The notes below the pieces were generated by a model. It was given only the letters and a program-made list of their open reading frames with translations. It did no database searches and had not been told where the DNA came from. Positions 51,810 through 64,000 of a stretch of DNA of 64,000 bases are shown here, in pieces; position 1 is the first letter of the stretch, and every line of letters begins with the position of its first letter. The position numbers and the translations under genes are program-made. The stretch comes from Lentisphaeria bacterium (lineage in GTDB: Bacteria; Verrucomicrobiota; Lentisphaeria; Oligosphaerales; Oligosphaeraceae), in assembly GCA_050949415.1 (NCBI GenBank), contig JBMNFR010000015.1, positions 549,093 to 613,092 on the forward strand, in the 5' to 3' direction.

Positions 51810-52571
51810 TCATCGGTTGGTGTCCAGGCGGAAGAAGATGGCCAGCAGCCCCGCCACCAGCCATGCCAGCAACATCGTGACGATGGTGTGCGAGAGATAA
51901 TGGTTGCCGGCCAGCATTTGGTAAGTACCCATCAGTGAGCCGGCGGCTAAGGCAATCATCAGGCCACGCCGACGTCCTGACCGGCTCAAAGGGGCAAAAG
52001 CCAAGCCGAACAAAGCATAGCCCCCGGAGGCGTGTCCGGCTGGCCAGCCCTTATAGCGTTTTTCCCCGACATGACGTGGTATTGACTGCCAGACGGTCCG
52101 ATAGGGAATGCTGCCACCGCCGTACCGGTCAATCTTGCGTGGATAGGCCACGCCAGTATGGGCTTTGAGGATGGCTACCAGAGAAGGAATCAGGGCCAGG
52201 CAAAGCAATACGTAAACGAGGCGGAGCCGGTTCCAGGGGCAGGTTAGCCGGCCCCAGCGCTGGCTGATGGTGAGCAGAAGCAGCGAACCGGCAAAAAATC
52301 CCAGCAGAAACTTGGGGATCACGTAGAAAGTAAGCCCCAAAGGGCTGTGTTTATCGAATTTAACCAGCCACTGCTGTGAGTCCCAGTCATACAGACAGTC
52401 CTGCACCCATAGATCAAAGGGTATCCATTCCCCCGCCACCAAAACCAGCAGCAGAAGCCCGAGGGGCAGAACGACGCGGGAGTACAGAGCTCCGTTCCAA
52501 GGTGTCAGTCTATGCGATTTTTTGTTTTCGGTCAGGTTATCAGCCCTACATGGATGCTCCCTCGCTGGCAT
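51810..52571 (-). CDS. PAP2-superfamily lipid phosphatase (LpxE/PgpB-like)
   Basis: Polytopic membrane protein. Motifs KAHTGVAYPRK (KxxxxxxRP-like), GWPAGHASG (PSGH-like), and SHT.V (SRxxxxxHxxxD-like, degenerate). Confidence 0.55.
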   Translation of the reverse strand: MPAREHPCRADNLTENKKSHRLTPWNGALYSRVVLPLGLLLLVLVAGEWIPFDLWVQDCLYDWDSQQWLVKFDKHSPLGLTFYVIPKFLLGFFAGSLLLLTISQRWGRLTCPWNRLRLVYVLLCLALIPSLVAILKAHTGVAYPRKIDRYGGGSIPYRTVWQSIPRHVGEKRYKGWPAGHASGGYALFGLAFAPLSRSGRRRGLMIALAAGSLMGTYQMLAGNHYLSHTIVTMLLAWLVAGLLAIFFRLDTNR

Positions 52572-52591
52572 GCTCTATCCTTCATTTTTTC

Positions 52592-53221
<630 letters not shown>

Positions 53222-53361
53222 GATTTTTTCTTTTTTCGGTGGGTGAAAAGATCGTATCAATTTGGTCAGCACGGATTAAATGCGTTATGTATTCACATCG
53301 GGAACCTCCTTTCAGCAGTTGAATATTAAAAACACCAGCTCCGCAGCAAAATTCCTTTCTG

Positions 53362-54801
53362 TCAACGGGAAACAAGCAGTTGCCAGATAGCCAATACCCA
53401 GGCGATTCCATTTATGGCAAGGCACAAGCCGACCGCTGCGCTGCCCAGATCTTTGGCCTTTTTGGCCAGGGGATTATATTCAGGCGATACCAAGTCTACG
53501 ACCGCCTCCACGGCAGTGTTCAGAATTTCAATAACCAAAACACCTGCCCAGAGCAGGCAAAGAATCAGTGCCTGCCATACGGGAAACGGAAACAACCATG
53601 CTGCGGGAACAAGCAGACAGCCCGCCAGTAATTCATGACGAAACGCTGTCTCTCCAACCACAGCTTTCAGACCACTGCCGGTATAGCATGTGGCGTGCCA
53701 AAGATGGCTGATCCCCGTTTTTTTGCCGGAATGAAGCAATACAGGTTGTAATTCATCGGGATTAATGGGGCTTGGGCAAAAGCCTGTTCGAGCTATCCGG
53801 GCAGTTGCAATGTTTTTCTGGTTCAACAGTATACTCCCGATAACAATCAAGGCAAGACCTGCCCAAAAAATGCTCGATTTATTGCCCAAAACCGTGCTGG
53901 CAAAAAATTCCAACCGTTCCCGTCCGGTCTCGGCAGTGACATCCACTTGTTTGACTTGGATGGTGCCATCCGCTTTGAAGTCGAACATCGCATAGCCAAA
54001 CATGCGGTTGTCGGGGTCCCGGATAACTTGTCCACTGGAAGGCAGATGGATCAGCCGGATGCCGGCGAAGATGCCTTCCATATACTGATGGATATGCCCA
54101 GAGATAATCAGATCGATCTTATATCCGGAGATAATTTTCCGAAAGGCTTCTGCTTCCTCCGCCGGCAGGCAATGGGAAGCTTTCGGGCGCAGATCCACTG
54201 GCGGGATATGGCAGAGGATGACGCAACGCCGATAACGTTCCCTTTGGCTGGAAAGGGTTTGTTTGAGAAACATGCGCTGATCTTCCGGCAGTTTTCCTTC
54301 TGCTGTGTTCAAGGCGATAAACAGGGTATCTCCATAGCTCCAGTAATAAAAATCCTGACCGAAAAACCGGTGCCAGGTTTCCAGGGAACTCAGAAGTCCT
54401 AGATCATGGTTCCCTGGAATGGCCCAGAAGGGACACTTCATTTCCTCGCGTAATTCTGAAACCACATGACCGTATTCGGCTTCCCGGGCGAACTTCATCA
54501 TGTCACCGGTACAAATTGTAAAATCCGCTTTGCTGCCGATGGAGCGAATCACCGCTTCCATCGAGTCGACCTTGGCGCCAAAGTCGCCGAAAGCCGCCAT
54601 CCGGAAATTTGTTGCCGCTGGATGCAACTCGAGCCCGGCAGGCGGGAGAAATGGCGGCAGATTGGTCAAAAACACCGTCCGTGCGGTGTAACAAGCCAGG
54701 CACATGCCAATTCCGGTTATAAGCAGCATCACACCCGCGATGCGGCGCAACAGCCGGTGTCGCGCATAGCGACATTCTATCCTGGTTTCTGATTCTTTCA
54801 C
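53362..54801 (-). CDS. Fusion protein: calcineurin-like metallophosphoesterase + transmembrane linker + diacylglycerol kinase (DgkA, prokaryotic DAGK family)
   Basis: Phosphoesterase motifs GDFG, GDMM, GNHD, GHIH. The C-terminus IEILNTAVEAVVDLVSPEYNPLAKKAKDLGSAAV closely matches E. coli DgkA EILNSAIEAVVDRIGSEYHELSGRAKDMGSAAV. Confidence 0.7.
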   Translation of the reverse strand: MKESETRIECRYARHRLLRRIAGVMLLITGIGMCLACYTARTVFLTNLPPFLPPAGLELHPAATNFRMAAFGDFGAKVDSMEAVIRSIGSKADFTICTGDMMKFAREAEYGHVVSELREEMKCPFWAIPGNHDLGLLSSLETWHRFFGQDFYYWSYGDTLFIALNTAEGKLPEDQRMFLKQTLSSQRERYRRCVILCHIPPVDLRPKASHCLPAEEAEAFRKIISGYKIDLIISGHIHQYMEGIFAGIRLIHLPSSGQVIRDPDNRMFGYAMFDFKADGTIQVKQVDVTAETGRERLEFFASTVLGNKSSIFWAGLALIVIGSILLNQKNIATARIARTGFCPSPINPDELQPVLLHSGKKTGISHLWHATCYTGSGLKAVVGETAFRHELLAGCLLVPAAWLFPFPVWQALILCLLWAGVLVIEILNTAVEAVVDLVSPEYNPLAKKAKDLGSAAVGLCLAINGIAWVLAIWQLLVSR

Positions 54802-56939
54802 TGGTTTTCCTTTTGCTTTAGAGGTAAAACCATCACCTTTGTTAGATTTGGGAAACGCATAGCCGGGTGAAGCCGGTCAAGACCCAGCTGATGTCGCAGG
54901 GACGCGCTCTGGTAGAGAGCAATGCAATCGGCGGGATCGTTTTGGGTTTCGGCTTCCAGCAGTGAAAATGGTGCCGTCAACGCCCATTTTTCATAAGAGA
55001 GTTTTCGTACCGGCTCAAGTAAAGTCAGAGTACCCGTTTCCGCCACCAGAAGACCGAGAGTCTGGAATGTGCCCAGCGGCGCCCTGCCTTCTTCAGCCGG
55101 CAGATTAAGCACGTCGCGACCAAAGAACTGGCTTTCGTAGGACCATCCCAGCAGGCCGAAAATAGTGGGAGCCACATCAATCTGACTGCAGACGGTGTCG
55201 ACGCTCTGGACGGGGAGCCGCCCCGGGGCGTAAAAGAGCAGCGGTATGTGGTATTTGTCCAATGGAAGTTTTTGGCGTCCGGAGGTGCTGTGGCAGTGAT
55301 CCGCGACAATCACAAACAGAGTATTGGCAAACCAGTCCCTGCCCGCGGCGGCATCGATAAAAGCTCCCAGGGCATGATCGCTGTACCGAACTGCCGAGGA
55401 ACGGCTTTTTTGCGGAGCATCAATCGTCCCCTCCGGGAAAGTGTAGGGACGATGATTCGAGGTGGTCATGATCAACTGATGAAAAGGACGCCCCACCGCA
55501 TGGTCGGCATCTGCGGCCCGAAGCGCCCATTGGAACATGTCGCCGTCGCAGACACCCCAGGCAGTGGAGAAATTCTGTGGCGTGGCATCCGGCGAGGACC
55601 TGTCCAGAATGTTATAGCCATTGGCTGAGTAGAAGGCGTTCATGTTGTCGAAACGCCCGTAGCCGCCATAGACAAAGGTGGTGGTGTAGCCCCGTTCGTG
55701 AAACAGCCTGCCAAGGGAAAACAAGTCACCATTGTCCGGCCGGCGGAGCATGGACTGCCCCGGCGTGGGGGGTATGGAGAGGGTTACTGCTTCAAGGCCG
55801 CGTACCGTGCGAGTGCCGGTGGCAAAACACCGGGTCAACAGCAGCCCTTCGCCGGCGAGGCGGTCGAGATTGGGCGTGCGAGTCTTTCCACCCAGGCATC
55901 CGACGAAGCTGGCGCTGAGACTTTCTTCAACAATGACCACCACATTCCACCTTTTTTCCGGCCCTGGATTGATGATGTTGCGGCGGATGTCCAGCGGTTC
56001 GTCGCTGGTGAAGGCGGCATTGGGTTCGGCTAGATGGCGGCGAAGACGCGGGCCGATTTCCGCCAAAGGCACTTTGAGGTAGAACCGATTATAGTCCAAT
56101 TCGTTCTGATAGTAGGCGGCAAACAGGGAGTGAATGCCGTTGCCGGCCAGTTCCACGTTGCAGGGGTTGCCGTTTTGGGGGATGGCGGTCTGATTGTTGA
56201 AGGTGAACGCAAGAATGACGACGGCGACGATATGGACGGCGGCGGCTGACCAGCGTGTCTTCCACCCGGTTAAAGAATTCAGCCAGGGCGTCAGCAAGCC
56301 GTCACGATGCATCCTCCACGCCAGAATGGCGGCAGTGGCGAAAATAACGGCCAGTAACCAGAGAACGGGGTACGACTCCCAAATGTTGGTCAGGACTTCC
56401 GTGGTATAGATCAGATAATCAATGGCAATGAAATTGAAGCGGGTGGCAAATTCGCCCCAGAACACGCATTCGGCAAGCAGCAGAAAGAGTAGCGTGGAAA
56501 GGGCAAGGAGGATGATTCCCGACATCGCCCGGCGATGCCCGCGGTACGTAAACAGCCGTTGCGGAATCACCGTCAGCCATAAAGTCAGCGGCAATGTTGC
56601 ATAGACCGACACCACTAGGTCGTTGAGCAGTCCATAAAACAAAATCCCGGCCCCGCCGAGTCCACCGAATTCAGCCTCATTCCTTCCCATAACCATCAGG
56701 ATCAACCGGGTCATGGTGAAAAAACAGAGGCCGAGTGCGGCCAGAATGACGGTTCCGCCCAAGCGATGTCCGGTGAGAATACTCCAAAGTTGCCGGAAGC
56801 ATCCTTTGCAGCACAGTGCTTGTTTCCCGGGTGGTGAACATGTTCGCTCACTGCGTATCGGAGTGGAAATGAGATTCTGATCATTACCAGCACATAGGTA
56901 GCCGATGATAAGCAGTTTTATGATTTTCGAACAAGTCAT
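54798..56939 (-). CDS. Sulfatase-family (alkaline-phosphatase superfamily) membrane transferase, LTA-synthase / phosphoglycerol-transferase-like
   Basis: N-terminal polytopic domain followed by a sulfatase-fold domain (VVVIVEESLSASF ... TSNHRPY). Confidence 0.65.
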   Translation of the reverse strand: MTCSKIIKLLIIGYLCAGNDQNLISTPIRSERTCSPPGKQALCCKGCFRQLWSILTGHRLGGTVILAALGLCFFTMTRLILMVMGRNEAEFGGLGGAGILFYGLLNDLVVSVYATLPLTLWLTVIPQRLFTYRGHRRAMSGIILLALSTLLFLLLAECVFWGEFATRFNFIAIDYLIYTTEVLTNIWESYPVLWLLAVIFATAAILAWRMHRDGLLTPWLNSLTGWKTRWSAAAVHIVAVVILAFTFNNQTAIPQNGNPCNVELAGNGIHSLFAAYYQNELDYNRFYLKVPLAEIGPRLRRHLAEPNAAFTSDEPLDIRRNIINPGPEKRWNVVVIVEESLSASFVGCLGGKTRTPNLDRLAGEGLLLTRCFATGTRTVRGLEAVTLSIPPTPGQSMLRRPDNGDLFSLGRLFHERGYTTTFVYGGYGRFDNMNAFYSANGYNILDRSSPDATPQNFSTAWGVCDGDMFQWALRAADADHAVGRPFHQLIMTTSNHRPYTFPEGTIDAPQKSRSSAVRYSDHALGAFIDAAAGRDWFANTLFVIVADHCHSTSGRQKLPLDKYHIPLLFYAPGRLPVQSVDTVCSQIDVAPTIFGLLGWSYESQFFGRDVLNLPAEEGRAPLGTFQTLGLLVAETGTLTLLEPVRKLSYEKWALTAPFSLLEAETQNDPADCIALYQSASLRHQLGLDRLHPAMRFPNLTKVMVLPLKQKENQ

Positions 56940-56985
56940 ATGAGGTTTCTCCCTGGAAAATGCGTTTTTTTCCTGTTTCTGATTT

Positions 56986-58881
56986 TCAGTTTTTCATGAA
57001 TCGGAACATATCGTGTTGAACCTTTTGCAATTCGCTGGCGTTGACACGATAAAAATCATCCTGATTACTGCAGGGCTCATCCTGCAACGTGGTGATCTTA
57101 CGGCTGAAGTATCTCCCTTTGGTTCCCAGAGGCAGCACCATCTTGTGGGTTGTGCTGATAAACGCTGCCGTCTCCCAACCGCAAACGACCATGTGGGAAC
57201 GGTGATATTCCGGCGAGAACAGATTGCCCCCCACCGAGTAGTCCTCCGGTGGATTGACGACTCCAAGCAAAGGTGCCAGCGAAGGAACTATGTCGGTATG
57301 GTGACTCATGCCCTCGTATACCGATGGAGTAACTCCTGGCCCCCGAATGACCAGCGGAACCCGTATCTGCTCCTGCACAAATGTCGAATTGTGTCCAAGA
57401 AAACCCTTTTCATAAAATTCCTCTCCATGGTCGCCGGTGATCACAACAATGGTGTTTTCCAGCAGTTCAGGTGTGTTTTCCAGCGCTGTGAAAAGGCGCG
57501 CCAACTGGTTGTCAATATGGTGCGCCGCGTTGACATCCCGGTTGTACAGCCGTTTGGCGTCTTGAGCTGAAACGGTGGCATAATTAATGTTTTCCAAATA
57601 ATCCTGCGTCATTGCCTGCTCCGGCGGAAAGGTATAGGGCGCGTGCGTCGACTCAAAAAAACCAAACAGGAAAAAAGGCCTGTTTTTATCTCTGGAATCC
57701 AGAAAAGCAACAGCACGGTCAATCAGACGGATATCCCGCTCCCAGGCTTTTCCGTTGCTTTCTTCATGTAAGGCAGATTCTGGCAGGGCGGCAAAAATAG
57801 TCCGGTCAAATTCTGGATAGGTGAAACGGGCTGACGTCATGCATAAAAACTGGTAATTGTCTTCGACGAGCCAGTCAATCAGCAACGGACCACGCTGACT
57901 GTGAAGAAATTTTCCCCAGCAATTTCCGTACAGCCCATAGAACATACTGAACATGCCCGGACGCGTGCCGTGCCCCCCACTGTAGTGTTGTGCGAACCGA
58001 CATCCTTTTCGGGAAAACTCCCAGGTTGATGGCATAATTTCAGGCGAAAGCAGATCCGCCCGCAGAGATTCGCCTACCAACCAAATCACATTGGGACGGC
58101 TTCGCCTCGGTAAACGGTCTATCGGCAGAAGCGGATAACTAACCCGAATCAGGCTGCCGTCTTTCTGCGTAAAGCGGGGAAGGTCAGTCCGTTTCGGCTC
58201 TTTCATCCCAATCTTGCGCAGAAAACGGCGCATGCGCATGGTCGGCGCGTGGGGGAACGCATCGATGGTGCACAATACGTCTTGGTTGAGCAGGAAATCA
58301 GCCATACCAGTACACAGCAATGAAAGCAGCAGTGCGGCTCCTGTCCACAGAGGAAAGGACCATCGCATGGTCTTGACCGGTAAATGCGATGCCAAGCGGG
58401 TGCAGAATTCCGATTTCAAGCAAAAAAACATCAAGCAGTAATGAAACACCAGCAACAGTCCAAGTCCGACTCCGGCGGTAAGCAGAGTATTGGCTTCCAG
58501 CCCCATGGATTCAAAGCCGCCAGGCGTCGTCAGCAGATTGACTACCAGCCCATTGATATGATAACCGAATTTGACGAGCATGACAGCATCGGCAAGGAGA
58601 AAAAAATGTACCAGAAAACCCAGCAGCACGGCCAGACTTCTGCCGGCCCAGGTAATCCACGAAGTGTTTTTGCCCGGTTTGCCGCTGCTGCCGATGGTAG
58701 CCGCCAGAAAAGCCGGTATCAGGACAATGCCAGTGTAGGCCAGCCAGGTAGAGGTAAGATATAATAACCGGAAAAGTCCGGTTCCCCCGTCATTGTGCCA
58801 GGCAAACCAGCCGGTCAAGGGCAAGGTTGCCAAATACAACAAAAGACAATAGGTATAAAAGGCCGTACGTTGTTCCTTCAT
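56986..58881 (-). CDS. Sulfatase-family inner-membrane protein (YejM/PbgA- or phosphoethanolamine-transferase-like)
   Basis: N-terminal multi-TM domain, then a sulfatase fold (NVIWLVGESLRAD ... ITGDHGEEF). Confidence 0.6.
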   Translation of the reverse strand: MKEQRTAFYTYCLLLYLATLPLTGWFAWHNDGGTGLFRLLYLTSTWLAYTGIVLIPAFLAATIGSSGKPGKNTSWITWAGRSLAVLLGFLVHFFLLADAVMLVKFGYHINGLVVNLLTTPGGFESMGLEANTLLTAGVGLGLLLVFHYCLMFFCLKSEFCTRLASHLPVKTMRWSFPLWTGAALLLSLLCTGMADFLLNQDVLCTIDAFPHAPTMRMRRFLRKIGMKEPKRTDLPRFTQKDGSLIRVSYPLLPIDRLPRRSRPNVIWLVGESLRADLLSPEIMPSTWEFSRKGCRFAQHYSGGHGTRPGMFSMFYGLYGNCWGKFLHSQRGPLLIDWLVEDNYQFLCMTSARFTYPEFDRTIFAALPESALHEESNGKAWERDIRLIDRAVAFLDSRDKNRPFFLFGFFESTHAPYTFPPEQAMTQDYLENINYATVSAQDAKRLYNRDVNAAHHIDNQLARLFTALENTPELLENTIVVITGDHGEEFYEKGFLGHNSTFVQEQIRVPLVIRGPGVTPSVYEGMSHHTDIVPSLAPLLGVVNPPEDYSVGGNLFSPEYHRSHMVVCGWETAAFISTTHKMVLPLGTKGRYFSRKITTLQDEPCSNQDDFYRVNASELQKVQHDMFRFMKN

Positions 58882-59529: not shown

Positions 59530-60960
59530 TCAAATTCTGCCTCTTCTGGGGTTTGCGAAAAAACGGGGTTATTTTAGGGTGGCTTTGAGCATTTGCTTGG
59601 TTAACGTCATTGACGGCAAATCATAAATTTTCAGTTTCATGTACTTATAGTCACGATATCCATAGGCCTGGGATATCAGATGTCGGATTTTGTTGTTGAA
59701 GCCCTCGGTGGCGGCATTAGTTAGCCGGTCGAACTGCCAATAGGCACAGATACCGTCCAGATGCTGTGCCACCGTCCTTCCCATGGTCTTGAGCTCAGGG
59801 ATGTTCATTCGCTGGCAGATGCCGGCCCAATCGGTCAGCATCCGTCGAGCCTCGTCGGCATCGTCGGCCAGCTGGTAGATTTTGACCAGGCACTCCTTAA
59901 GCGTCCAGGCATCGTAGAGGTCTTTGGAGACCTGCTGCAGGGCTTCAATCGACAGTTTCTCGTCATCGGTGAGGTCGTCGCTGTTATGCAACAGTGCCCA
60001 CCGCTTGCCCTTCAGCTGCTTGGTGGCTTCCTGGTCCAACTCTGACTGGACTTTTCGGCGGACCTTGTCCAGCTTCTGGTTCATCAGCTGGATGACATGA
60101 AAGTGATCGTAAACTACCGTCGCGTTAGGAAGCTGCTCTCTCACCCATTTGGCATAGGCGTTGCTCATGTCCATGCACACGGCCTCAACGTCGGCTTTGA
60201 AGTGGTTAAGCCGGGCCTTGAAGGGGGCCAGCGCCTCGCTACCCTTGCCGTCGCCGACAAACAGCACGGCTCCATTGAGCATGTTACGGACCACCGTCAG
60301 GTACTTTTGCCGGCGCTTGCCTTCAACCCGTTCATGGCCAACGTGAATCTCATCTATCCCGATGATCCTGATCCCCTTCATGTGGATGTGACTGTATTCC
60401 TTTTCCAGCCAGCTCACTTCCACATTTTTGACGGCCTCCCAGTCCAAATCGAAATGGGCAGCGATGGCGCTGATGGTCATCGTGTCCCGCAATTCCAGGA
60501 TCGAACGGGCCATGGCGCGGGTCATGCGAGCCTTGGGGTGGGGGAGGAAATCCGGATTTTCGTAGGACATGGCCTGGCACTTCCGGCAATAAAGACGATG
60601 AACCAACATCTTTAAGTAAAGTCTTTTGCTGCCAATGTTTTGTCTTTGAATCACACGTTCGCGGACAGGATAAGCCTTGACCTCGGCTGATCCACACTCC
60701 GGGCAGCGGAATTCTTTGCATTCGATTTTCTCGTAGCAGGCGCCACCCTTGTATTCCATGGCGATGTGCTTGCAACTTCTGATCCCTTGAGTATGGTAAA
60801 GAACACTGGTCATCATCCGGAAAGCCTCCTTGGTTATGGGTTGGAAATGAACACATAACATAAGGCTGATGATGACCAGCTTCAACTGCTCGTTGCGCCG
60901 GTAAAGTCATGATTGGCTTTGCAAGGGAAATGAAACATTTCCCTTGCAAAGCCGGTCATG
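59530..60960 (-). mobile_element. ISL3-family insertion sequence (boundaries approximate)
   Basis: Single ISL3 transposase gene. Flanking ggctttgcaagggaaatg-type sequences appear at both ends, with a perfect 40-bp palindrome at 60916-60955 and a hairpin at 59490-59522. The exact inverted repeats are not resolved. Confidence 0.45.
59569..60816 (-). CDS. ISL3-family transposase
   Basis: Start MMTSVLYHTQGI with an AAGGAGG ribosome-binding site. N-terminal zinc finger CKEFRCPECG...CRKC and an ISL3 DDE domain. Confidence 0.85.
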   Translation of the reverse strand: MMTSVLYHTQGIRSCKHIAMEYKGGACYEKIECKEFRCPECGSAEVKAYPVRERVIQRQNIGSKRLYLKMLVHRLYCRKCQAMSYENPDFLPHPKARMTRAMARSILELRDTMTISAIAAHFDLDWEAVKNVEVSWLEKEYSHIHMKGIRIIGIDEIHVGHERVEGKRRQKYLTVVRNMLNGAVLFVGDGKGSEALAPFKARLNHFKADVEAVCMDMSNAYAKWVREQLPNATVVYDHFHVIQLMNQKLDKVRRKVQSELDQEATKQLKGKRWALLHNSDDLTDDEKLSIEALQQVSKDLYDAWTLKECLVKIYQLADDADEARRMLTDWAGICQRMNIPELKTMGRTVAQHLDGICAYWQFDRLTNAATEGFNNKIRHLISQAYGYRDYKYMKLKIYDLPSMTLTKQMLKATLK

Positions 60961-61563
60961 ACGAGGTTGCACTTTGGAAAGGACCGGAGGCAAGGGCGTT
61001 CACGTATAAATGGGGGGGACCCGCGTCAGCGGGGAGGAACCCGTTTATGCCGTGAACGCCCTTGCCGGAGGGCATTTCCAAAGTACGGCAGAGGTCGACT
61101 GCGGTTTTCCTGAAGGTCTTGTTCCCCTCTCGGAAAAGTGAAACATTATTCTTTTCCCAAACCCCAGAAGAACCGAACAACGCACGACCAATACGATCAA
61201 GGCCGACACCTCCGACGCAACTCAGTTCATGTGCATAATAGCTTGCATGATAGTCTGTAATCATTCTAATAGGTCTATTGTTGTAATCAGCCATGGGGTC
61301 TATTCTTCGCTGGGTGCCGTCAACTGGACTTGAATATCCCACCGTGTCTCCAAGCATCTCGGACAGCGATAGGCAAGAAGCCAAAAAGTTTTGCCCGGGC
61401 ATCATAGCAGATAGGTGTGTTTCAGAACTTAATTCAGCAAGGATAAAAATCAAATCAACGCGTAAATAGTCCTGCAACTTTTAGGGCACAGGATTTTGCT
61501 TTTCCCTGCACCGTTACACAATATTGGAAACATCAGAGAGCATCAGCCTGATTGACACAACAG

Positions 61564-61944
61564 CTACACGTCAATAAATCGGTAAATGCCATCATGGTTT
61601 GACATATCCATCCCCCCCGGCAGTTTCTTCATGACGTACACCATTGCCGTCACCACGCTCCCGTCAGCCAGCGTTGCGGGCACGGTTTCGCGCACATAGA
61701 GCCTCGGATAGCCTTCCAGGACATCGATCCTGGCCAGCGTCTCCGGGGTTAATTCGAGCAGTTCTGCGGTCACGTCGCGGCCGTCATCGTCCGGCACAAA
61801 GGCCGGATAGCCCCAGCCAGTGTCGTAGAGCGCGCCCTGGATCGTACAGGGCACCCTACTCCTGGCATCGGCGCCCCAGTGCTCATTGCGCTCTCCCTTC
61901 ATCAGCGTGCCGTAAACCGCAAGGCGAATCAGCTTCTCACTCAT
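61564..61944 (-). CDS. Gamma-glutamyl cyclotransferase-fold protein (AIG2/GGACT family)
   Basis: N-terminal YGTLMKG motif and a downstream LEGYP..Y.R catalytic-Glu region. Confidence 0.6.
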   Translation of the reverse strand: MSEKLIRLAVYGTLMKGERNEHWGADARSRVPCTIQGALYDTGWGYPAFVPDDDGRDVTAELLELTPETLARIDVLEGYPRLYVRETVPATLADGSVVTAMVYVMKKLPGGMDMSNHDGIYRFIDV

Positions 61945-62381
61945 TACCCGATCCTCCTTGCGGCAGATGTCCCAAAGGCATCAGGCAACCCGTGCTGCCG
62001 GACTCCAGCCGAGCAGATGCGCCGGTAGTCCTCCGGATAGGATATGCCATCACGCTGGCGCCGCGCCTCGGGCGTCATCACATAGGTAAACACCCGGTAG
62101 AACCTTTGACCGCACTGGACGCAAAAAGTGTCCCTGGTATAAATTCCTTTGGCGACACCCTCACACCGGTCCAGCCGATGCCGATCCTCATCGCTGATGC
62201 GCCACAGCACGCCGTAAACGGCGTTTCCCGGCGCTTCCTCGATGTCCGCGTACAGACGCTCCACCAGACGGTAATCGCGCAGAACTGCCGTACTGAACAG
62301 TCTTGCGCCAGGACAGCGAGCCAGCATCCTGGCGCCATAGCAGTTGCTTGCGTAGCTCAAATATAAGCTGTCCATACGCAT
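61944..62381 (-). CDS. Gamma-glutamyl cyclotransferase-fold protein (GGCT-like), second paralog
   Basis: N-terminal YLSYASNC (compare YGSN in GGCT). AVYGVLWRI ... DRCEGV..YTR. Its start overlaps the downstream gene's stop. Confidence 0.5.
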   Translation of the reverse strand: MRMDSLYLSYASNCYGARMLARCPGARLFSTAVLRDYRLVERLYADIEEAPGNAVYGVLWRISDEDRHRLDRCEGVAKGIYTRDTFCVQCGQRFYRVFTYVMTPEARRQRDGISYPEDYRRICSAGVRQHGLPDAFGTSAARRIG

Positions 62382-62692
62382 TAATCCTCCTTCTTGTCCG
62401 GTTTTTCTTTGTTATCACCATTTCCCTCCGGTTCAAAGGCAGCGTAACCGGCTGCCACCAGCTGCGACAGGAAAGCTTCTGCGGCCTCGTCGGGTTCGTC
62501 GGACAATTCTATCTGACCGGTTCCGATGCTGGCCAGGATTCTCCGCATATAGGCCACGGGGCTGGTTTCCAGGGTAAACGGGTTGATCATCATACCCTCC
62601 ACCACTTCCAGGAAGGTACTGCCGGCAAAATAGTCGCCGGTGCAGCTGACCGGCCTTCCATCTGGGCTGGTACTATGGATTCTGACTTTCAT
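62381..62692 (-). CDS. small acidic hypothetical protein (possible substrate/carrier of the adjacent amidoligase)
   Basis: Start MKVRIH with an AAGGAGA ribosome-binding site. 104 aa with a strongly acidic C-terminus (EPEGNGDNKEKPDKKED). Its stop overlaps the next gene's start. Confidence 0.4.
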   Translation of the reverse strand: MKVRIHSTSPDGRPVSCTGDYFAGSTFLEVVEGMMINPFTLETSPVAYMRRILASIGTGQIELSDEPDEAAEAFLSQLVAAGYAAFEPEGNGDNKEKPDKKED

Positions 62693-62745
62693 ATTGTCTC
62701 CTTTTCTTTGCGGTGCGGAGGGGTTTCCTCCGCACCTGGCTGTTC

Positions 62746-63642
62746 TTAGCGTCCTGCCGGGCGGCCATTCTTCCATGCTGAGCTTCCAGGCAGGTTCTTG
62801 AGGAGGTGCATCCGGGTATTTTTGAACTCTGGGCCATTCATGCCAAGGTTCAGGAGCAGTACGCGGACATCGTACTTGGCGCTGGTCTCGCTGTACTCGC
62901 GCGGCTTCTTGGTCGATGCACACTTGGCGGTGACCGCCTTGGCGGCGAGGGCGAGGGCCAGGAGGATGTTGGCTTTGGCGACTCCGGCATGGCTGACACC
63001 ATTGTAGATTCTCAGCTCAACCGTGCCGGTGCGCCACACGTTGTTAAGGTTCATACCATGGTAGCGGTGCATTTCGTAGTGGTCCGGGTGGGGATTGGCG
63101 TATCCGAACCAGGCTTTGTTGAGCTCCTCTTTGGTGGCCGGCTTGGCGGCTTCGAGGCGTTCGATGAACTCGCGGTCGGTCGGCTTGGTGTAGCGGGCGA
63201 TCCGGGTCGGCAGGGTTCCGACCGCCTTCATGATCAGGGCTTCCTGCTTGTAGTAGATTCTCGCCAGGTTGGCGATCTGGCGCGGCGTCCAGTCTCCGAC
63301 GCCGATGTGCACGTGCTGGCTGGTGCATTCCGGGGTCTCGGCGCCGGCTTTGCGCAGGGCTCTGACGATCTCCTGCAGGGTGTCCATGTCGTCGTAGCGG
63401 AGGATGGGGCTGACCACTTCAGCAGTCGTTGCGCGGTCGCCCAGGCTGCTGTCCGCGACCGCCTTCCAGACGCGGCCGTCGGGGGCGTCCACCGCCCAGG
63501 TGTCGTAGGCGCCGCCTTCGTAGCGGATGCTGCCGCCGACCACGCTCTGGATGGCCTGCGCCGCCTTCTGGCGGCTGATGTGGGTGTACTCAAGTTCGGT
63601 TCCGAAGGTCAGGTTTTGGATGGTCTCGATGGTGTTCGTCAT
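62746..63642 (-). CDS. Glutamine-synthetase-like amidoligase (carboxylate-amine ligase / GCS2-like fold)
   Basis: Start MTNTIETIQ with an AGGAG ribosome-binding site. N-terminal LTFGTELEYTHIS fits the GxExE first-strand metal motif. HVHIGVGD fits the conserved His pair of YbdK-type ligases. About 300 aa, as for the Amidoligase_2 family. Confidence 0.5.
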   Translation of the reverse strand: MTNTIETIQNLTFGTELEYTHISRQKAAQAIQSVVGGSIRYEGGAYDTWAVDAPDGRVWKAVADSSLGDRATTAEVVSPILRYDDMDTLQEIVRALRKAGAETPECTSQHVHIGVGDWTPRQIANLARIYYKQEALIMKAVGTLPTRIARYTKPTDREFIERLEAAKPATKEELNKAWFGYANPHPDHYEMHRYHGMNLNNVWRTGTVELRIYNGVSHAGVAKANILLALALAAKAVTAKCASTKKPREYSETSAKYDVRVLLLNLGMNGPEFKNTRMHLLKNLPGSSAWKNGRPAGR

Positions 63643-64000
63643 GGTCTGGCTCCTGGTGGCTGGGGTTGTGGTTGCACGCTCCTCCGTACGTTCATTACAT
63701 AAGCTGATAACAACCCTTAAGCCAGTCGGAAAGGCCAAAGAATATATCTTTAATCGACTTACTACCAGTCATTTATGTATTTTACCGTGTTTGTTTTCGG
63801 CATCACCGGACCAGAGGCGCCAGGCAGACCATTTGGGGCCGATAGCACAGGCTGTACTCATGCTTTGCTCCTTATGCTGGCCGGCGTTTTGTCAAAAATA
63901 ATGCTCTTGCAGTATTCTTAACTTACTTGCTTTTAGTTGTTTAAGTCTATTTCTTTCTTTATCCTACAGTTTAACTGAAAAATATCCTTGCACTTTGACT

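What the first reader, a model, noticed from the sequence alone, without database searches (positions are those of the whole stretch)
61564..63642. Four-gene operon: GS-like amidoligase + small acidic protein + two gamma-glutamyl-cyclotransferase-fold proteins
The four minus-strand genes are tightly packed. Two junctions are overlapping start/stop codons, implying translational coupling. The first gene product has the N-terminal GxExE strand and the HxH motif of glutamine-synthetase-fold carboxylate-amine ligases. It is followed by a 104-aa acidic protein and two distinct GGCT/AIG2-fold proteins. Amidoligase-plus-GGCT gene neighbourhoods have been predicted computationally (Iyer-Aravind-type analyses) to make and recycle gamma-glutamyl-type amide conjugates or peptide tags. 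They are essentially uncharacterised experimentally. The small acidic protein could be the acceptor or substrate. The operon's promoter and any further partners lie beyond the window end, with an AT-rich region at 63650-64000.
Basis: partly seen in the sequence, partly recalled or inferred. Interest (0 to 1): 0.7.

Follow-up and report, generated by a model that had tools for sequence, protein, structure and literature searches.

The report
Prophage amidoligase and cyclotransferase gene cassette
The four genes are real and form a compact accessory cassette carried by phages of Lentisphaerota: an ATP-dependent amide-bond ligase, a previously undescribed small partner protein, and two enzymes that cut gamma-glutamyl amide bonds. 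This kind of phage module was predicted in 2009 and has still not been tested experimentally.

Summary
Four minus-strand genes (61564-63642) encode an Amidoligase_2 enzyme, a 103-aa (not 104) acidic protein, and two different GGCT-fold proteins. Two junctions are TAATG overlaps, and every gene has a strong ribosome-binding site.

The cassette belongs to a decayed prophage in a Lentisphaeria genome, with an IS66-family element upstream and an ISL3 element downstream. Nothing beyond the window end belongs to the operon, and a promoter-like leader lies inside the window.

The same gene order recurs in viral contigs and prophages whose small proteins are only about 35-40% identical. Some relatives have a class II glutamine amidotransferase in place of GGCT-A. 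Some lack the GGCTs and some lack the small protein.

The small protein founds an orphan family (99 representative clusters). It has no known fold, no conserved charged residue and a variable tail. Every member with readable upstream flank follows an amidoligase.

The most likely mechanism is that the ligase makes a gamma-glutamyl amide and the GGCTs cleave it to 5-oxoproline plus the amine, for phage-host conflict. The substrate is unknown. I rate it a new variant of the known phiEco32/LUZ24-type phage cassette, of moderate interest.

The parts
62746..63642 (-). Amidoligase_2 (GS/GCL-fold ATP-dependent carboxylate-amine ligase), 298 aa, pI 9.3
62381..62692 (-). Small acidic partner protein, 103 aa: a globular alpha/beta domain (residues 1-88) plus a disordered charged tail; orphan family
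   Evidence: No Pfam, PHROG, NCBIfam or PADLOC hit. 22 close homologues and 99 representative clusters by profile search. AF2 pLDDT 76.7, tail below 50. No fold match in the PDB or BFVD. It lies directly downstream of an Amidoligase_2 gene in every locus with readable upstream flank. Strong RBS.
61944..62381 (-). GGCT-A: gamma-glutamyl cyclotransferase-fold protein of the C7orf24/AIG2_2 type, 145 aa
   Evidence: Pfam GGACT 1.1e-10 and AIG2_2 1.7e-10. PHROG 2520. Human GGCT matches at 5e-9; E74 aligns with catalytic E98, and Y10-A-S-N13 aligns with the YGSN loop. The E is conserved in all 14 orthologues; the window copy alone has YASN. The start overlaps the small gene's stop (TAATG).
61564..61944 (-). 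GGCT-B: GGACT/YtfP-type gamma-glutamylamine cyclotransferase-fold protein, 126 aa
   Evidence: Pfam GGACT 3e-24. PDB YtfP 1xhs E=1e-3. The YGTL motif is conserved in all 13 orthologues and the LEG(Y/V/F)PxxYxR motif in 12 of 13. The start overlaps the GGCT-A stop (TAATG).
63643..63745 (-). Promoter-like or 5'-leader element of the cassette (core 63710-63729)
   Evidence: A roughly 41-nt motif is repeated three times in the phage-derived DNA, each about 90 nt upstream of a start codon (alignment). It occurs once in the 64-kb window, with 0 expected by chance. It is also present upstream of the amidoligase in L010. No Rfam family matches. Its function is inferred, not shown.
63973..64000 (.). 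End of an IS66-family insertion that separates the cassette from the phage late genes (boundary, not part of the system)
   Evidence: A perfect 14-nt terminal inverted repeat lies at L005 7870-7883 and 9657-9670, the latter equal to window 63973-63986. The DDE_Tnp_IS66 gene lies between the two arms.
60956..61477 (-). ORF173, an orphan ORF between the cassette and the ISL3 element; unclear whether it is a gene or belongs to the cassette
   Evidence: It is called as a gene in the public assembly. It has no hit in any HMM library and none in plasmids. It is absent from every related locus.
59569..60885 (-). ISL3-family transposase; marks the downstream boundary of the phage-derived DNA, with host sulfatase genes following
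   Evidence: Pfam DDE_Tnp_ISL3 4.6e-68. Neighbouring gene content.

Best explanation
This is a self-contained phage accessory cassette (a 'moron') that makes and breaks gamma-glutamyl-type amide bonds in the host cytoplasm.

Step 1. The basic GS/GCL-fold amidoligase uses ATP to turn a carboxylate into an acyl-phosphate and joins it to an amine. The carboxylate is most probably the gamma-carboxylate of free glutamate, as in every enzyme it structurally resembles. The fold and catalytic motifs are shown; the substrates are inferred.

Step 2. The two GGCT-fold enzymes cleave gamma-glutamyl-amine bonds by cyclising the glutamyl part to 5-oxoproline and releasing the amine. One is of the GGCT type, which acts on gamma-glutamyl-alpha-amino acids. 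The other is of the GGACT type, which acts on gamma-glutamyl-epsilon/alkyl-amines. They would either trim off-target products or remove the glutamyl group after it has served its purpose. The folds and catalytic Glu are shown; the coupling to the ligase is inferred from gene linkage and from a class II glutamine amidotransferase replacing GGCT-A in some relatives.

Step 3. The small acidic protein is a clade-specific non-catalytic partner of the ligase, such as a specificity or regulatory subunit, rather than a Pup-like tag (inferred).

The cassette has its own leader, and IS-free relatives have a terminator in front of it. It sits among DNA methyltransferase/ParB-type accessory genes or next to the packaging genes of temperate phages. 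Its pay-off is therefore probably in phage-host or phage-phage conflict: conversion or sequestration of a host amine or cell-wall precursor, host takeover, or superinfection exclusion. It is probably not housekeeping metabolism. The amine substrate is unknown.
For: Enzymes:
- HMM assignments are well above curated cut-offs.
- Catalytic motifs are invariant.
- The GGCT catalytic Glu is conserved in all orthologues of both GGCTs. The YGSN loop is intact in every GGCT-A orthologue except the window copy (YASN), and the YGTL motif in every GGCT-B orthologue.

Linkage:
- Of 18 non-redundant loci with an amidoligase at least 46% identical, 14 of the 16 that can be assessed carry at least one GGCT within 3 kb, and 14 of 18 carry the small protein.
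- The exact four-gene order recurs in L021 and in IMG/VR contigs L030 and L032, and with one or two genes inserted between the small gene and GGCT-A in L027, L029 and L033. In L021-L024 and L032 the junctions between the small gene, GGCT-A and GGCT-B again overlap.
- In L034 and L037 a GATase_6 class II amidotransferase occupies the GGCT-A slot. It is another enzyme that attacks the gamma-amide of a free glutamyl group.

Phage context:
- The window's own contig has phage late genes upstream (Phage_cement_2 and others).
- IS-free relatives run tail genes, terminator, cassette, two N6_N4 methyltransferases, then host genes.
- In a phage contig the ligase and small gene lie between TerL and portal.
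- The Oligosphaera ethanolica prophage has the pair next to ParB-MTase/terminase and the S24 repressor.
- Ca. Heliusvirales gut phages carry amidoligase+GGCT beside ParB/MTase/terminase.

Precedents and charge:
- GS-like ligase plus a reversing gamma-glutamyl hydrolase in one operon is known from AtdA1/A2 and NpaA1/A2 (PMC11335346).
- The phage amidoligase/GATase/GGCT cassette was predicted by Iyer 2009, as cited in PMC5498523 and PMC11318856.
- The charge pattern fits a complex: ligases have pI 9.3-10.2 and small partners have a median pI of 4.7.
Against: - No substrate, product or phenotype is known for any Amidoligase_2 protein in the literature I could search.
- A ligase and enzymes that undo its product in one co-translated operon is paradoxical unless there is proofreading, timing or a transfer step in between.
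- GGCT-fold proteins could act on unrelated host compounds.
- The window's GGCT-A has YASN instead of the otherwise universal YGSN loop and could be impaired.
- The prophage is decayed (IS66 and ISL3 insertions), so the cassette may no longer be expressed as it was in the phage.
- The small protein's role rests only on gene linkage and charge; no complex prediction could be run.
- The basic pI of the ligase, its neighbourhood of DNA-modification genes, and the published co-occurrence of amidoligases with thymidine-hypermodification genes (PMC8989533) fit a nucleic-acid substrate about as well.
Confidence: 0.5

Rival explanations
1. Protein tagging or modification. The ligase attaches the small protein, or glutamate, to proteins, or modifies the small protein itself, in the manner of Pup-PafA. 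The GGCTs act as removers.
Against: The small protein has a folded domain, whereas Pup is disordered. Its C-terminus is not conserved and is sometimes absent, and the family has no invariant Lys, Glu or Asp. Four cassettes with ligase and GGCTs lack it. GGCT chemistry needs a free alpha-amino group on the glutamyl residue, which a protein-internal or Pup-type C-terminal Glu does not have (established enzymology of GGCT/GGACT). The ligase resembles YbdK/GCL more than PafA.
Confidence: 0.13
2. Nucleic-acid modification. The basic ligase adds glutamate or another amino acid to a modified base in phage DNA (or RNA) as protection against restriction. The GGCTs or GATase trim or mature the adduct.
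For: All 30 ligases have pI 9.3-10.2. The cassette sits next to N6_N4 DNA methyltransferases, ParB_N-MTase fusions or a type III R-M system in several phages. Amidoligase and amidotransferase genes co-occur with thymidine-hypermodification clusters in viral contigs (PMC8989533).
Against: No gene for a precursor base (dUMP hydroxymethylase, 5-HMUDK, aGPT-Pplase, TET/JBP, deazaguanine pathway) appears in the Pfam-annotated or Pfam-scanned neighbours. Methyltransferases are generic prophage cargo. The cassette also occurs away from them.
Confidence: 0.13
3. Peptidoglycan-precursor remodelling for superinfection exclusion. This is the classical reading of the phiEco32/LUZ24 cassette: the ligase adds a residue to the stem peptide and the GGCT or GATase recycles it.
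For: This is the function given in the literature for homologous phage cassettes (PMC5498523; PMC11318856; PMC10580990). A prophage benefits from excluding competing phages. gamma-D-Glu linkages exist in stem peptides (established knowledge).
Against: It is purely a prediction, never tested (same papers). The ATP-grasp and second ligase of the phiEco32 set are absent here. None of the four proteins carried a Pfam, PHROG or NCBIfam signal-peptide, membrane or Mur-ligase annotation. In intact stem peptides the D-Glu alpha-amine is blocked, so GGCT could not act.
Confidence: 0.12
4. Auxiliary metabolic genes that boost host nitrogen or amino-acid metabolism during infection or lysogeny.
For: This was proposed for a Planctomycetes phage carrying amidoligase, GATase, GGCT and glutathione synthase (PMC10945688). 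PHROG places the GGCT family under 'moron, auxiliary metabolic gene and host takeover'.
Against: The cited paper infers the function from annotation. Ligase plus GGCT alone gives a net-consuming cycle (Glu + ATP to 5-oxoproline), not assimilation. The genes have no close host counterparts, and the clade-specific orphan partner protein is untypical of AMGs.
Confidence: 0.06

Closest known systems
phiEco32 / LUZ24 / PaP3 / RIO-1-type phage cassette: Amidoligase_2 + class II glutamine amidotransferase + GGCT (+ ATP-grasp). Predicted by Iyer et al. 2009 and described in PMC5498523, PMC3517423 and PMC10580990.
   Same: The same ligase family (PF12224, PHROG 2443) and the same GGCT PHROG (2520). Both are phage-borne and linked in one block. 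Related loci L034 and L037 even carry the GATase_6 gene.
   Different: The window has no GATase and no ATP-grasp or second ligase. It has two GGCT paralogues of different subfamilies. It has an orphan small partner with no homologue in 50,697 GenBank phage records. It is in a temperate prophage of Lentisphaerota rather than a lytic podophage. The amidoligase is at most 39.5% identical to any GenBank phage hit.
Ca. Heliusvirales gut phages (PV0364xx): amidoligase + GGCT beside ParB/MTase/terminase
   Same: Amidoligase (33-39% identical) followed within about 1 kb by a GGCT-A-type gene, with small hypothetical genes between them in L013, in a temperate-phage accessory region.
   Different: Their small intervening proteins are unrelated to the window's (BLASTP gives no alignment; hhalign probability below 1%). 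There is usually a second amidoligase-like paralogue or an N-terminal extension. There is no GGCT-B. The hosts are Firmicutes.
Bacterial gamma-glutamylation pathways for amines: PuuA/PuuD, GlnA2/GlnA3, AtdA1/AtdA2, NpaA1/NpaA2
   Different: Those ligases are full-length GS-type proteins (Pfam Gln-synt_C), not Amidoligase_2. The reversing enzyme is a GAT-like enzyme (AtdA2/NpaA2), not a cyclotransferase. Oxidative steps lie in between. They are chromosomal or plasmid catabolic operons, not phage cargo.
gamma-Glutamyl cycle (GCL + GGCT) of glutathione metabolism
   Different: Only 9-16% sequence identity to GCLs. No glutathione synthetase, gamma-glutamyl transpeptidase or 5-oxoprolinase is linked. 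The setting is a phage.
Pupylation (Pup, PafA, Dop)
   Same: A GS-fold ligase, a small acidic protein encoded next to it, and an enzyme that removes the modification.
   Different: The small protein is folded, has no conserved C-terminal GGQ/GGE, and has a variable tail. The remover is GGCT-fold rather than a Dop paralogue. There is no proteasome or Mpa. Not Actinobacteria.

Membership tests
Amidoligase_2 (PF12224), GS-like carboxylate-amine ligases | Match to the family HMM above the curated threshold | tested here: met
   172.7 bits against a cut-off of 22, E=1.7e-50, covering profile positions 2-244 of 245. PHROG 2443 E=4.6e-72.
Amidoligase_2 (PF12224), GS-like carboxylate-amine ligases | Glutamine-synthetase/GCL catalytic fold | tested here: met
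Amidoligase_2 (PF12224), GS-like carboxylate-amine ligases | Conserved metal/ATP-binding residues (ExE strand, E, HxH, ExR) | tested here: met
   E16, E18, E75, H110, H112, E209, R211 and H218 are invariant in 30 homologues. The ExE, HxH and ExR motifs and E75 are kept in phage versions down to 27% identity.
Amidoligase_2 (PF12224), GS-like carboxylate-amine ligases | ATP-dependent amide-bond formation | not testable with these tools
   Needs an enzyme assay. No member has been assayed in the literature I searched.
GGCT fold (PF06094 GGACT / PF13772 AIG2_2) | HMM match above threshold for both proteins | tested here: met
   GGCT-A: 42.5 bits (cut-off 22.8) and 41.6 bits (cut-off 27). GGCT-B: 86.3 bits (cut-off 22.8).
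GGCT fold (PF06094 GGACT / PF13772 AIG2_2) | Catalytic glutamate and the YGS(N/L)-type substrate loop | tested here: met
   GGCT-A E74 aligns with human GGCT E98. GGCT-B has YGTL and LEGYP. These are conserved in the orthologues. Caveat: the window's GGCT-A loop reads YASN, not YGSN.
phiEco32/LUZ24-type phage amidoligase cassette | Amidoligase_2 and GGCT genes linked on a phage genome | tested here: met
   Prophage and viral-contig context. 14 of 16 assessable loci carry a GGCT.
phiEco32/LUZ24-type phage amidoligase cassette | Class II glutamine amidotransferase in the block | tested here: not met
   No GATase gene is in the window cassette or within 10 kb on its contig. One is present in relatives L034 and L037, where it replaces GGCT-A.
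phiEco32/LUZ24-type phage amidoligase cassette | ATP-grasp ligase or a second amidoligase in the block | tested here: not met
   No ATP-grasp Pfam hit on any called gene in the Pfam-annotated loci L001/L005, L006, L010 and L019-L024. A second amidoligase-like ORF was seen only in the Heliusvirales-type loci L013, L014 and L025.
Pupylation-like tagging system | Small intrinsically disordered tag with a conserved C-terminal Gly-Gly-Gln/Glu | tested here: not met
   Residues 1-88 are predicted folded. The C-termini are variable (KKED, KKG, KEV, DKP, ITR, or absent).
Pupylation-like tagging system | Ligase of the PafA/Dop family; proteasome/Mpa linkage | tested here: not met
Known anti-phage defence systems (PADLOC-DB 2.0) | Any component matching a defence-system HMM | tested here: not met
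   No hit at E<=0.1 for the four proteins or ORF173.

The most novel reading that the evidence does not exclude
The cassette may be a complete writer-adaptor-eraser set for a reversible gamma-glutamyl mark on a macromolecule. In this reading the small acidic protein steers the basic GS-fold ligase to put free glutamate onto amino groups of a host or phage protein, or of a nucleic acid. The two GGCT-fold enzymes remove the mark by cyclising it to 5-oxoproline, with one specificity each.

A related unexcluded variant: ligase plus GGCTs run a deliberate futile cycle (Glu + ATP to 5-oxoproline), gated by the small protein, which shuts down the cell on superinfection.

Either would be a mechanism with no characterised precedent in phage biology.
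Probability: 0.08. Interest if true: 0.8.

Novelty: new variant of a known kind. Interest (0 to 1): 0.45.

Why it matters
Amidoligase_2 + GGCT/GATase modules are widespread in phages. They occur in LUZ24- and phiEco32-like therapeutic-candidate phages, in the abundant Ca. Heliusvirales of the human gut, and here in Lentisphaerota prophages.

No enzyme of the family has a known substrate. The functions quoted for them (cell-wall remodelling, nitrogen AMG) are untested guesses repeated from one 2009 prediction.

This locus offers a minimal version: four genes in 2.1 kb, without the ATP-grasp or GATase components. It comes with natural swap and deletion variants: GATase in place of GGCT-A, with or without the small partner, with or without the GGCTs. 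There is also a cultured relative, the Oligosphaera ethanolica prophage.

That makes it a practical entry point for finding the substrate. The newly delineated small partner family is a handle for pull-downs and co-structure prediction.

Tried and rejected
Look-ups with GGCT-B and the amidoligase then found the source contig.
- blastn of the cassette against plasmids gave nothing. Against phages it gave one 78-nt hit.
- Fold searches with the small protein model found nothing significant. PDB Foldseek best E=1.6. BFVD best E=0.16, an unnamed 79-aa viral protein with TM 0.48/0.61. The afdb50 library was unavailable.
- tblastn of two small-family members against GenBank phages gave no match.
- The amidoligase has no sequence relative in the PDB.
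- hhalign of the small family against the small proteins of the Heliusvirales cassette showed no relationship. A 78-aa ORF after a 27%-identical amidoligase (L041) gave only 69% probability.
- I tested whether the ligase's conserved disordered C-terminal tail (LPGSxAWKxGR) tracks the presence of the small partner. It does not; it is family-wide.
- An Rfam scan of the cassette and leader gave no family at E<=1, so no glutamine or other riboswitch. The leader fold has z=-2.4, which is inconclusive.
- PADLOC gave no hits.
- ORF173 could not be identified. My recollection that its DYHASYYAHEL motif resembles helicase N-termini could not be verified and I dropped it.
- Iyer et al. 2009 could not be read, so its content is cited only through papers that quote it.
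- My greedy ORF clustering of neighbourhoods was contaminated by antisense ORFs in this GC-rich DNA. I used it only as a guide for the targeted Pfam scans.
- I considered and rejected an ACP-like carrier role for the small protein (the butirosin BtrI/BtrJ/BtrG analogy), because the family has no conserved serine.


Full report
1. WHAT IS IN THE SEQUENCE

The minus strand between 61564 and 63642 carries four ORFs.

- Amidoligase: 62746..63642, 298 aa from the ATG at 63642.
- Small protein: 62381..62692, 103 aa. My first exact-match look-up failed for that reason.
- GGCT-A: 61944..62381, 145 aa.
- GGCT-B: 61564..61944, 126 aa.

The small/GGCT-A and GGCT-A/GGCT-B junctions are both TAATG one-base overlaps. 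The amidoligase and small genes are 53 nt apart. All four starts have an AGGAG or AGGAGG box 5-8 nt upstream. Gene callers of the public assemblies call exactly these genes. The cassette is 60% G+C against 56.5% for the window, and the amidoligase has GC3 of 84%.

2. WHAT THE PROTEINS ARE

Amidoligase.
- It matches Pfam Amidoligase_2 at E=1.7e-50 (172.7 bits, cut-off 22) and PHROG 2443 'amidoligase enzyme' at 4.6e-72.
- It has no sequence relative in the PDB.
- An AlphaFold model built on 30 homologues is confident (pLDDT 91.7, pTM 0.91).
They persist in phage homologues down to 27% identity.

GGCT-A.
- It matches GGACT and AIG2_2 and human gamma-glutamyl cyclotransferase at 5e-9.
- Its E74 lies on the catalytic E98 of the human enzyme. 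Its Y10-A-S-N13 lies on the YGSN loop. The role of E98 is from my knowledge of the human GGCT structures.

GGCT-B.
- It matches GGACT at 3e-24. It is nearest to E. coli YtfP and PH0828, which makes it the gamma-glutamylamine cyclotransferase type.

In alignments of 14 and 13 orthologues from related loci the catalytic Glu and the YGSN/YGTL motifs are conserved. The one exception is that the window's GGCT-A reads YASN. All three enzymes therefore look catalytically competent, with that caveat.

Small protein.
- It hits nothing in Pfam, PHROGs, NCBIfam or PADLOC.
- It is a real gene. It has 22 close homologues at 58-100% identity. A profile search over 1.84 billion representatives finds 99 clusters at E<=1e-3 and 41 at E<=1e-10, almost all 80-120 aa long.
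- AlphaFold predicts a small alpha/beta domain (residues 1-88, pLDDT about 80) and a disordered tail (91-103, pLDDT about 40).
- Neither the PDB nor BFVD holds a significant structural match.
- Across 51 diverse members the nearly invariant positions are M1, G12, G19, G24, P38-F39 (an 'NPF' loop), M49, L53, L63, A71 and F74. These are structural or interface-type residues. No Lys, Glu, Asp, Ser or Cys is conserved, and the tail varies in length and sequence or is missing.
- The family is acidic, with median pI 4.7 and 84% of members below 6. The ligases are uniformly basic, pI 9.3-10.2.

3. WHERE IT SITS

The window is part of a 650,920-bp JGI metagenome contig (3300053716, Ga0534105_00109), and NCBI labels identical proteins 'Lentisphaeria bacterium'.

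Upstream, reading beyond the window end:
- The cassette's 5' region ends after about 330 nt at an IS66-family element. Perfect 14-nt terminal inverted repeats lie at L005 7870-7883 and 9657-9670, the latter equal to window 63973-63986. The transposase gene is on the opposite strand.
- Past the IS lie phage genes: a Phage_cement_2 decoration protein, a 264-aa protein whose orthologue hits Phage_tail_C, a 704-aa protein shared with other phage loci, and small genes.

Downstream:
- An orphan ORF of 173 aa comes first, then an ISL3 transposase (59569..60885), then ordinary host genes such as sulfatases, PAP2 and a sensor kinase.
- No tRNA gene lies nearby.

The cassette is therefore the last intact piece at the edge of an IS-riddled prophage remnant.

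Relatives without the IS elements show the original layout (L021-L024, amidoligase 74% identical). It runs: phage late/tail genes, a canonical intrinsic terminator (GCCCCGGACGGGGCTTTTTT), about 130 nt of leader, amidoligase(299)-small(110)-GGCT-A(142)-GGCT-B(189), an HTH/N6_N4 DNA methyltransferase, a 162-aa gene, a second N6_N4 methyltransferase, then host genes.

Other positions:
- In a phage contig with an SU10-type capsid, the amidoligase-small pair lies between the large terminase and the portal, without GGCTs (L006/L007).
- In the cultured Oligosphaera ethanolica genome, the pair lies between a ParB_N-methyltransferase/terminase/portal/capsid block and the S24 repressor/antirepressor region of a prophage.

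4. HOW CONSERVED THE NEIGHBOURHOOD IS

I collected 42 loci and scanned all ORFs with the window proteins and an HMM of the small family. After removing duplicates, 18 loci carry an amidoligase at least 46% identical.

- Fourteen of the 18 have the small protein immediately downstream. That includes all 13 loci whose amidoligase is more than 60% identical.
- Conversely, every small-family member I could place with readable upstream flank follows an amidoligase. That includes members only 35-40% identical to the window's (L015-L018).
- At least one GGCT lies within 3 kb in 14 of 16 assessable loci. Two contigs end too early to tell.

The variants are:
- (i) ligase-small-GGCT-A-GGCT-B: the window, L021, L030 and L032, and with one or two genes inserted between the small gene and GGCT-A in L027, L029 and L033 (a DUF3846 gene in L033).
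- (ii) ligase-small-GATase_6-GGCT-B: L034 and L037. The inserted gene starts MCG(L/Q)CG and matches class II (Ntn) glutamine amidotransferase domains at 2e-12 and 6e-14.
- (iii) ligase-small only: L006 and L020.
- (iv) no small protein: GGCT-B-ligase-GGCT-A (L036, L038, L039) or ligase-GGCT-A-GGCT-B (L035).

In GenBank phages the amidoligase finds 52 records, all below 40% identity. The listed complete genomes are almost all PV0364xx records, and the two I opened are classified Ca. Heliusvirales. In these the ligase is followed by a GGCT-A-type gene, with unrelated small ORFs between them in L013, next to ParB/methyltransferase/terminase genes. The paper describing that lineage does not mention these genes.

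Expression of the small ORF could not be checked.

5. TRANSCRIPTION UNIT

Instead, a roughly 41-nt motif (core CCGACTGGCTTAAGGGTTGT, window 63710-63729) lies about 90 nt upstream of the amidoligase start. It recurs about 90 nt upstream of two other small genes in the phage-derived DNA (L005 6645 and 7390). It occurs nowhere else in the 64-kb window, where 0 matches are expected by chance.

Together with the terminator in front of the IS-free versions, this indicates an autonomous unit, which is the classic moron layout. This is an inference. The sigma-70 scan is uninformative here, no Rfam family matches, and the leader's predicted fold is only mildly better than shuffles (z=-2.4).

6. MECHANISM

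Shown:
- A GS/GCL-fold ligase with intact catalytic residues.
- Two GGCT-fold proteins of different subfamilies with the catalytic Glu.
- Tight, translationally coupled linkage that survives extensive sequence divergence.
- A phage origin.

Inferred from family chemistry:
- Every characterised enzyme among the structural neighbours phosphorylates a glutamyl gamma-carboxylate and passes it to an amine. The acceptors include ammonia, cysteine, methylamine, arylamines, polyamines and a protein lysine.
- GGCT-fold enzymes cleave gamma-glutamyl-amine bonds by intramolecular attack of the free alpha-amino group, giving 5-oxoproline.
- That requirement for a free alpha-amine argues that the conjugate is built from free glutamate, not from a glutamate inside a protein.
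- In two relatives the GGCT-A slot is filled by a class II amidotransferase. That enzyme also attacks the gamma-amide of a free glutamyl group, which supports the idea that this slot holds a 'gamma-glutamyl-amide breaker'.
- Pairing a GS-like ligase with an enzyme that reverses its product in one operon has a tested precedent in AtdA1/AtdA2 and NpaA1/NpaA2 (PMC11335346).

On this basis I propose a make-and-break module for a gamma-glutamyl amide. The small acidic protein would be a clade-specific, non-catalytic partner of the basic ligase. The biological pay-off would be in phage-host or phage-phage conflict. My confidence in this general scheme is about 0.5. The identity of the amine is open.

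7. RIVALS

- Pup-like tagging is disfavoured. The small protein is folded, its tail is unconserved, it is dispensable in four cassettes, and GGCT chemistry does not fit.
- A nucleic-acid substrate remains attractive. The ligase is very basic, methyltransferase/ParB neighbours recur, and amidoligases have been reported in thymidine-hypermodification clusters (PMC8989533). However, no precursor-base genes are seen among the annotated neighbours.
- The textbook 'peptidoglycan remodelling / superinfection exclusion' reading is an untested prediction, and the ATP-grasp/second-ligase part of that cassette is missing here.
- The 'nitrogen AMG' reading (PMC10945688) rests on annotation and does not fit a net-consuming pair of reactions.
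- No known defence-system model matches.

8. NOVELTY AND VERDICT

The kind of system is known on paper since Iyer et al. 2009 and is annotated routinely by PHROGs. It is a phage amidoligase with gamma-glutamyl-bond-cleaving partners.

New here:
- A minimal four-gene architecture with two GGCT paralogues and no GATase or ATP-grasp.
- Its presence in Lentisphaerota prophages.
- The natural GGCT-A/GATase swap.
- A previously undescribed orphan small-protein family that is a faithful satellite of one amidoligase clade and is absent from GenBank phage records.

I class it as a new variant of a known kind, with interest 0.45. It is not surprising to a specialist, but it is a clean and experimentally tractable entry to a widespread, uncharacterised phage enzyme system.

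Noticed in passing
window 63643-63745 (core 63710-63729, minus strand); L005 6645-6685 and 7390-7430: A roughly 41-nt motif (CCGAYTGGMTTAAGGGTTGT...GCTTAATTAGTGA) is repeated about 90 nt upstream of three separate start codons in the phage-derived DNA. It is absent from the other 63 kb of the window. It may be a phage-specific promoter or 5'-UTR element. No Rfam match; fold z=-2.4.
   Followed up: partly
window 63973-64000 and beyond (L005 7870-9670): An IS66-family insertion of about 1.8 kb, with perfect 14-nt terminal inverted repeats (AACTGAAAAATATC), sits between the phage late genes and the cassette. With the ISL3 element at 59569-60885 it brackets the cassette, so the four genes could in principle move as a composite unit.
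   Followed up: partly
window 60956-61477 and 60906-61084: ORF173 is called as a gene in the public assembly but has no hit in any library and no counterpart in related loci. Its 3' part overlaps two long hairpins (27-nt arms at 60906-60962; 34-nt arms at 60971-61084) next to the ISL3 end. It may be a truncated gene or IS-associated sequence.
   Followed up: partly
window 62746-62790 (amidoligase residues about 284-298); loci L006-L040, L013, L014: The amidoligases share a conserved but disordered C-terminal tail, LPGSxAWKxGR (pLDDT about 53). It is present with or without the small partner and even in Heliusvirales phages. It looks like a short linear motif for binding some conserved partner.
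   Followed up: partly
window 62343-62354 (GGCT-A residues 10-13): The window's GGCT-A reads YASN where all 14 orthologues examined read YGSN in the substrate-binding loop. It also has a one-residue insertion after the catalytic EG. This may indicate relaxed constraint in the decaying prophage.
   Followed up: partly
L034 9402-10175; L037 9292-10080: A class II (Ntn, MCG...) glutamine amidotransferase gene occupies exactly the position of GGCT-A, between the small gene and GGCT-B. This natural swap links the cassette to the phiEco32/LUZ24 type.
   Followed up: yes
L033 9616-10152; L026 10183-10647; L020 11401-11793: Extra small genes are inserted after the small partner in some phages: a DUF3846 protein (E=1.7e-14) in L033 and unannotated ORFs of 154 aa (L026) and 130 aa (L020). 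DUF3846 is unexplained here.
   Followed up: no
GenBank phages PV036410-PV036459 (e.g. L013, L014): Nearly all of the complete phage genomes listed among the 52 GenBank hits are PV0364xx records, and the two opened are Ca. Heliusvirales. They encode an amidoligase, often with a second amidoligase-like paralogue and a GGCT, beside ParB/MTase/terminase. The paper describing the lineage does not mention these genes.
   Followed up: partly
L010 2407-4208: In one related contig the amidoligase and GGCT-A are each split into two or three ORFs by frameshifts. The contig has about 1x coverage, so these are probably assembly errors rather than pseudogenes.
   Followed up: no
window 51810-58881: The host genes next to the element are two sulfatase-family (phosphoethanolamine-transferase-like) proteins, a Metallophos/DAGK fusion, a PAP2 phosphatase and a sensor kinase. 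This looks like an envelope-lipid modification cluster. I did not examine it.
   Followed up: no
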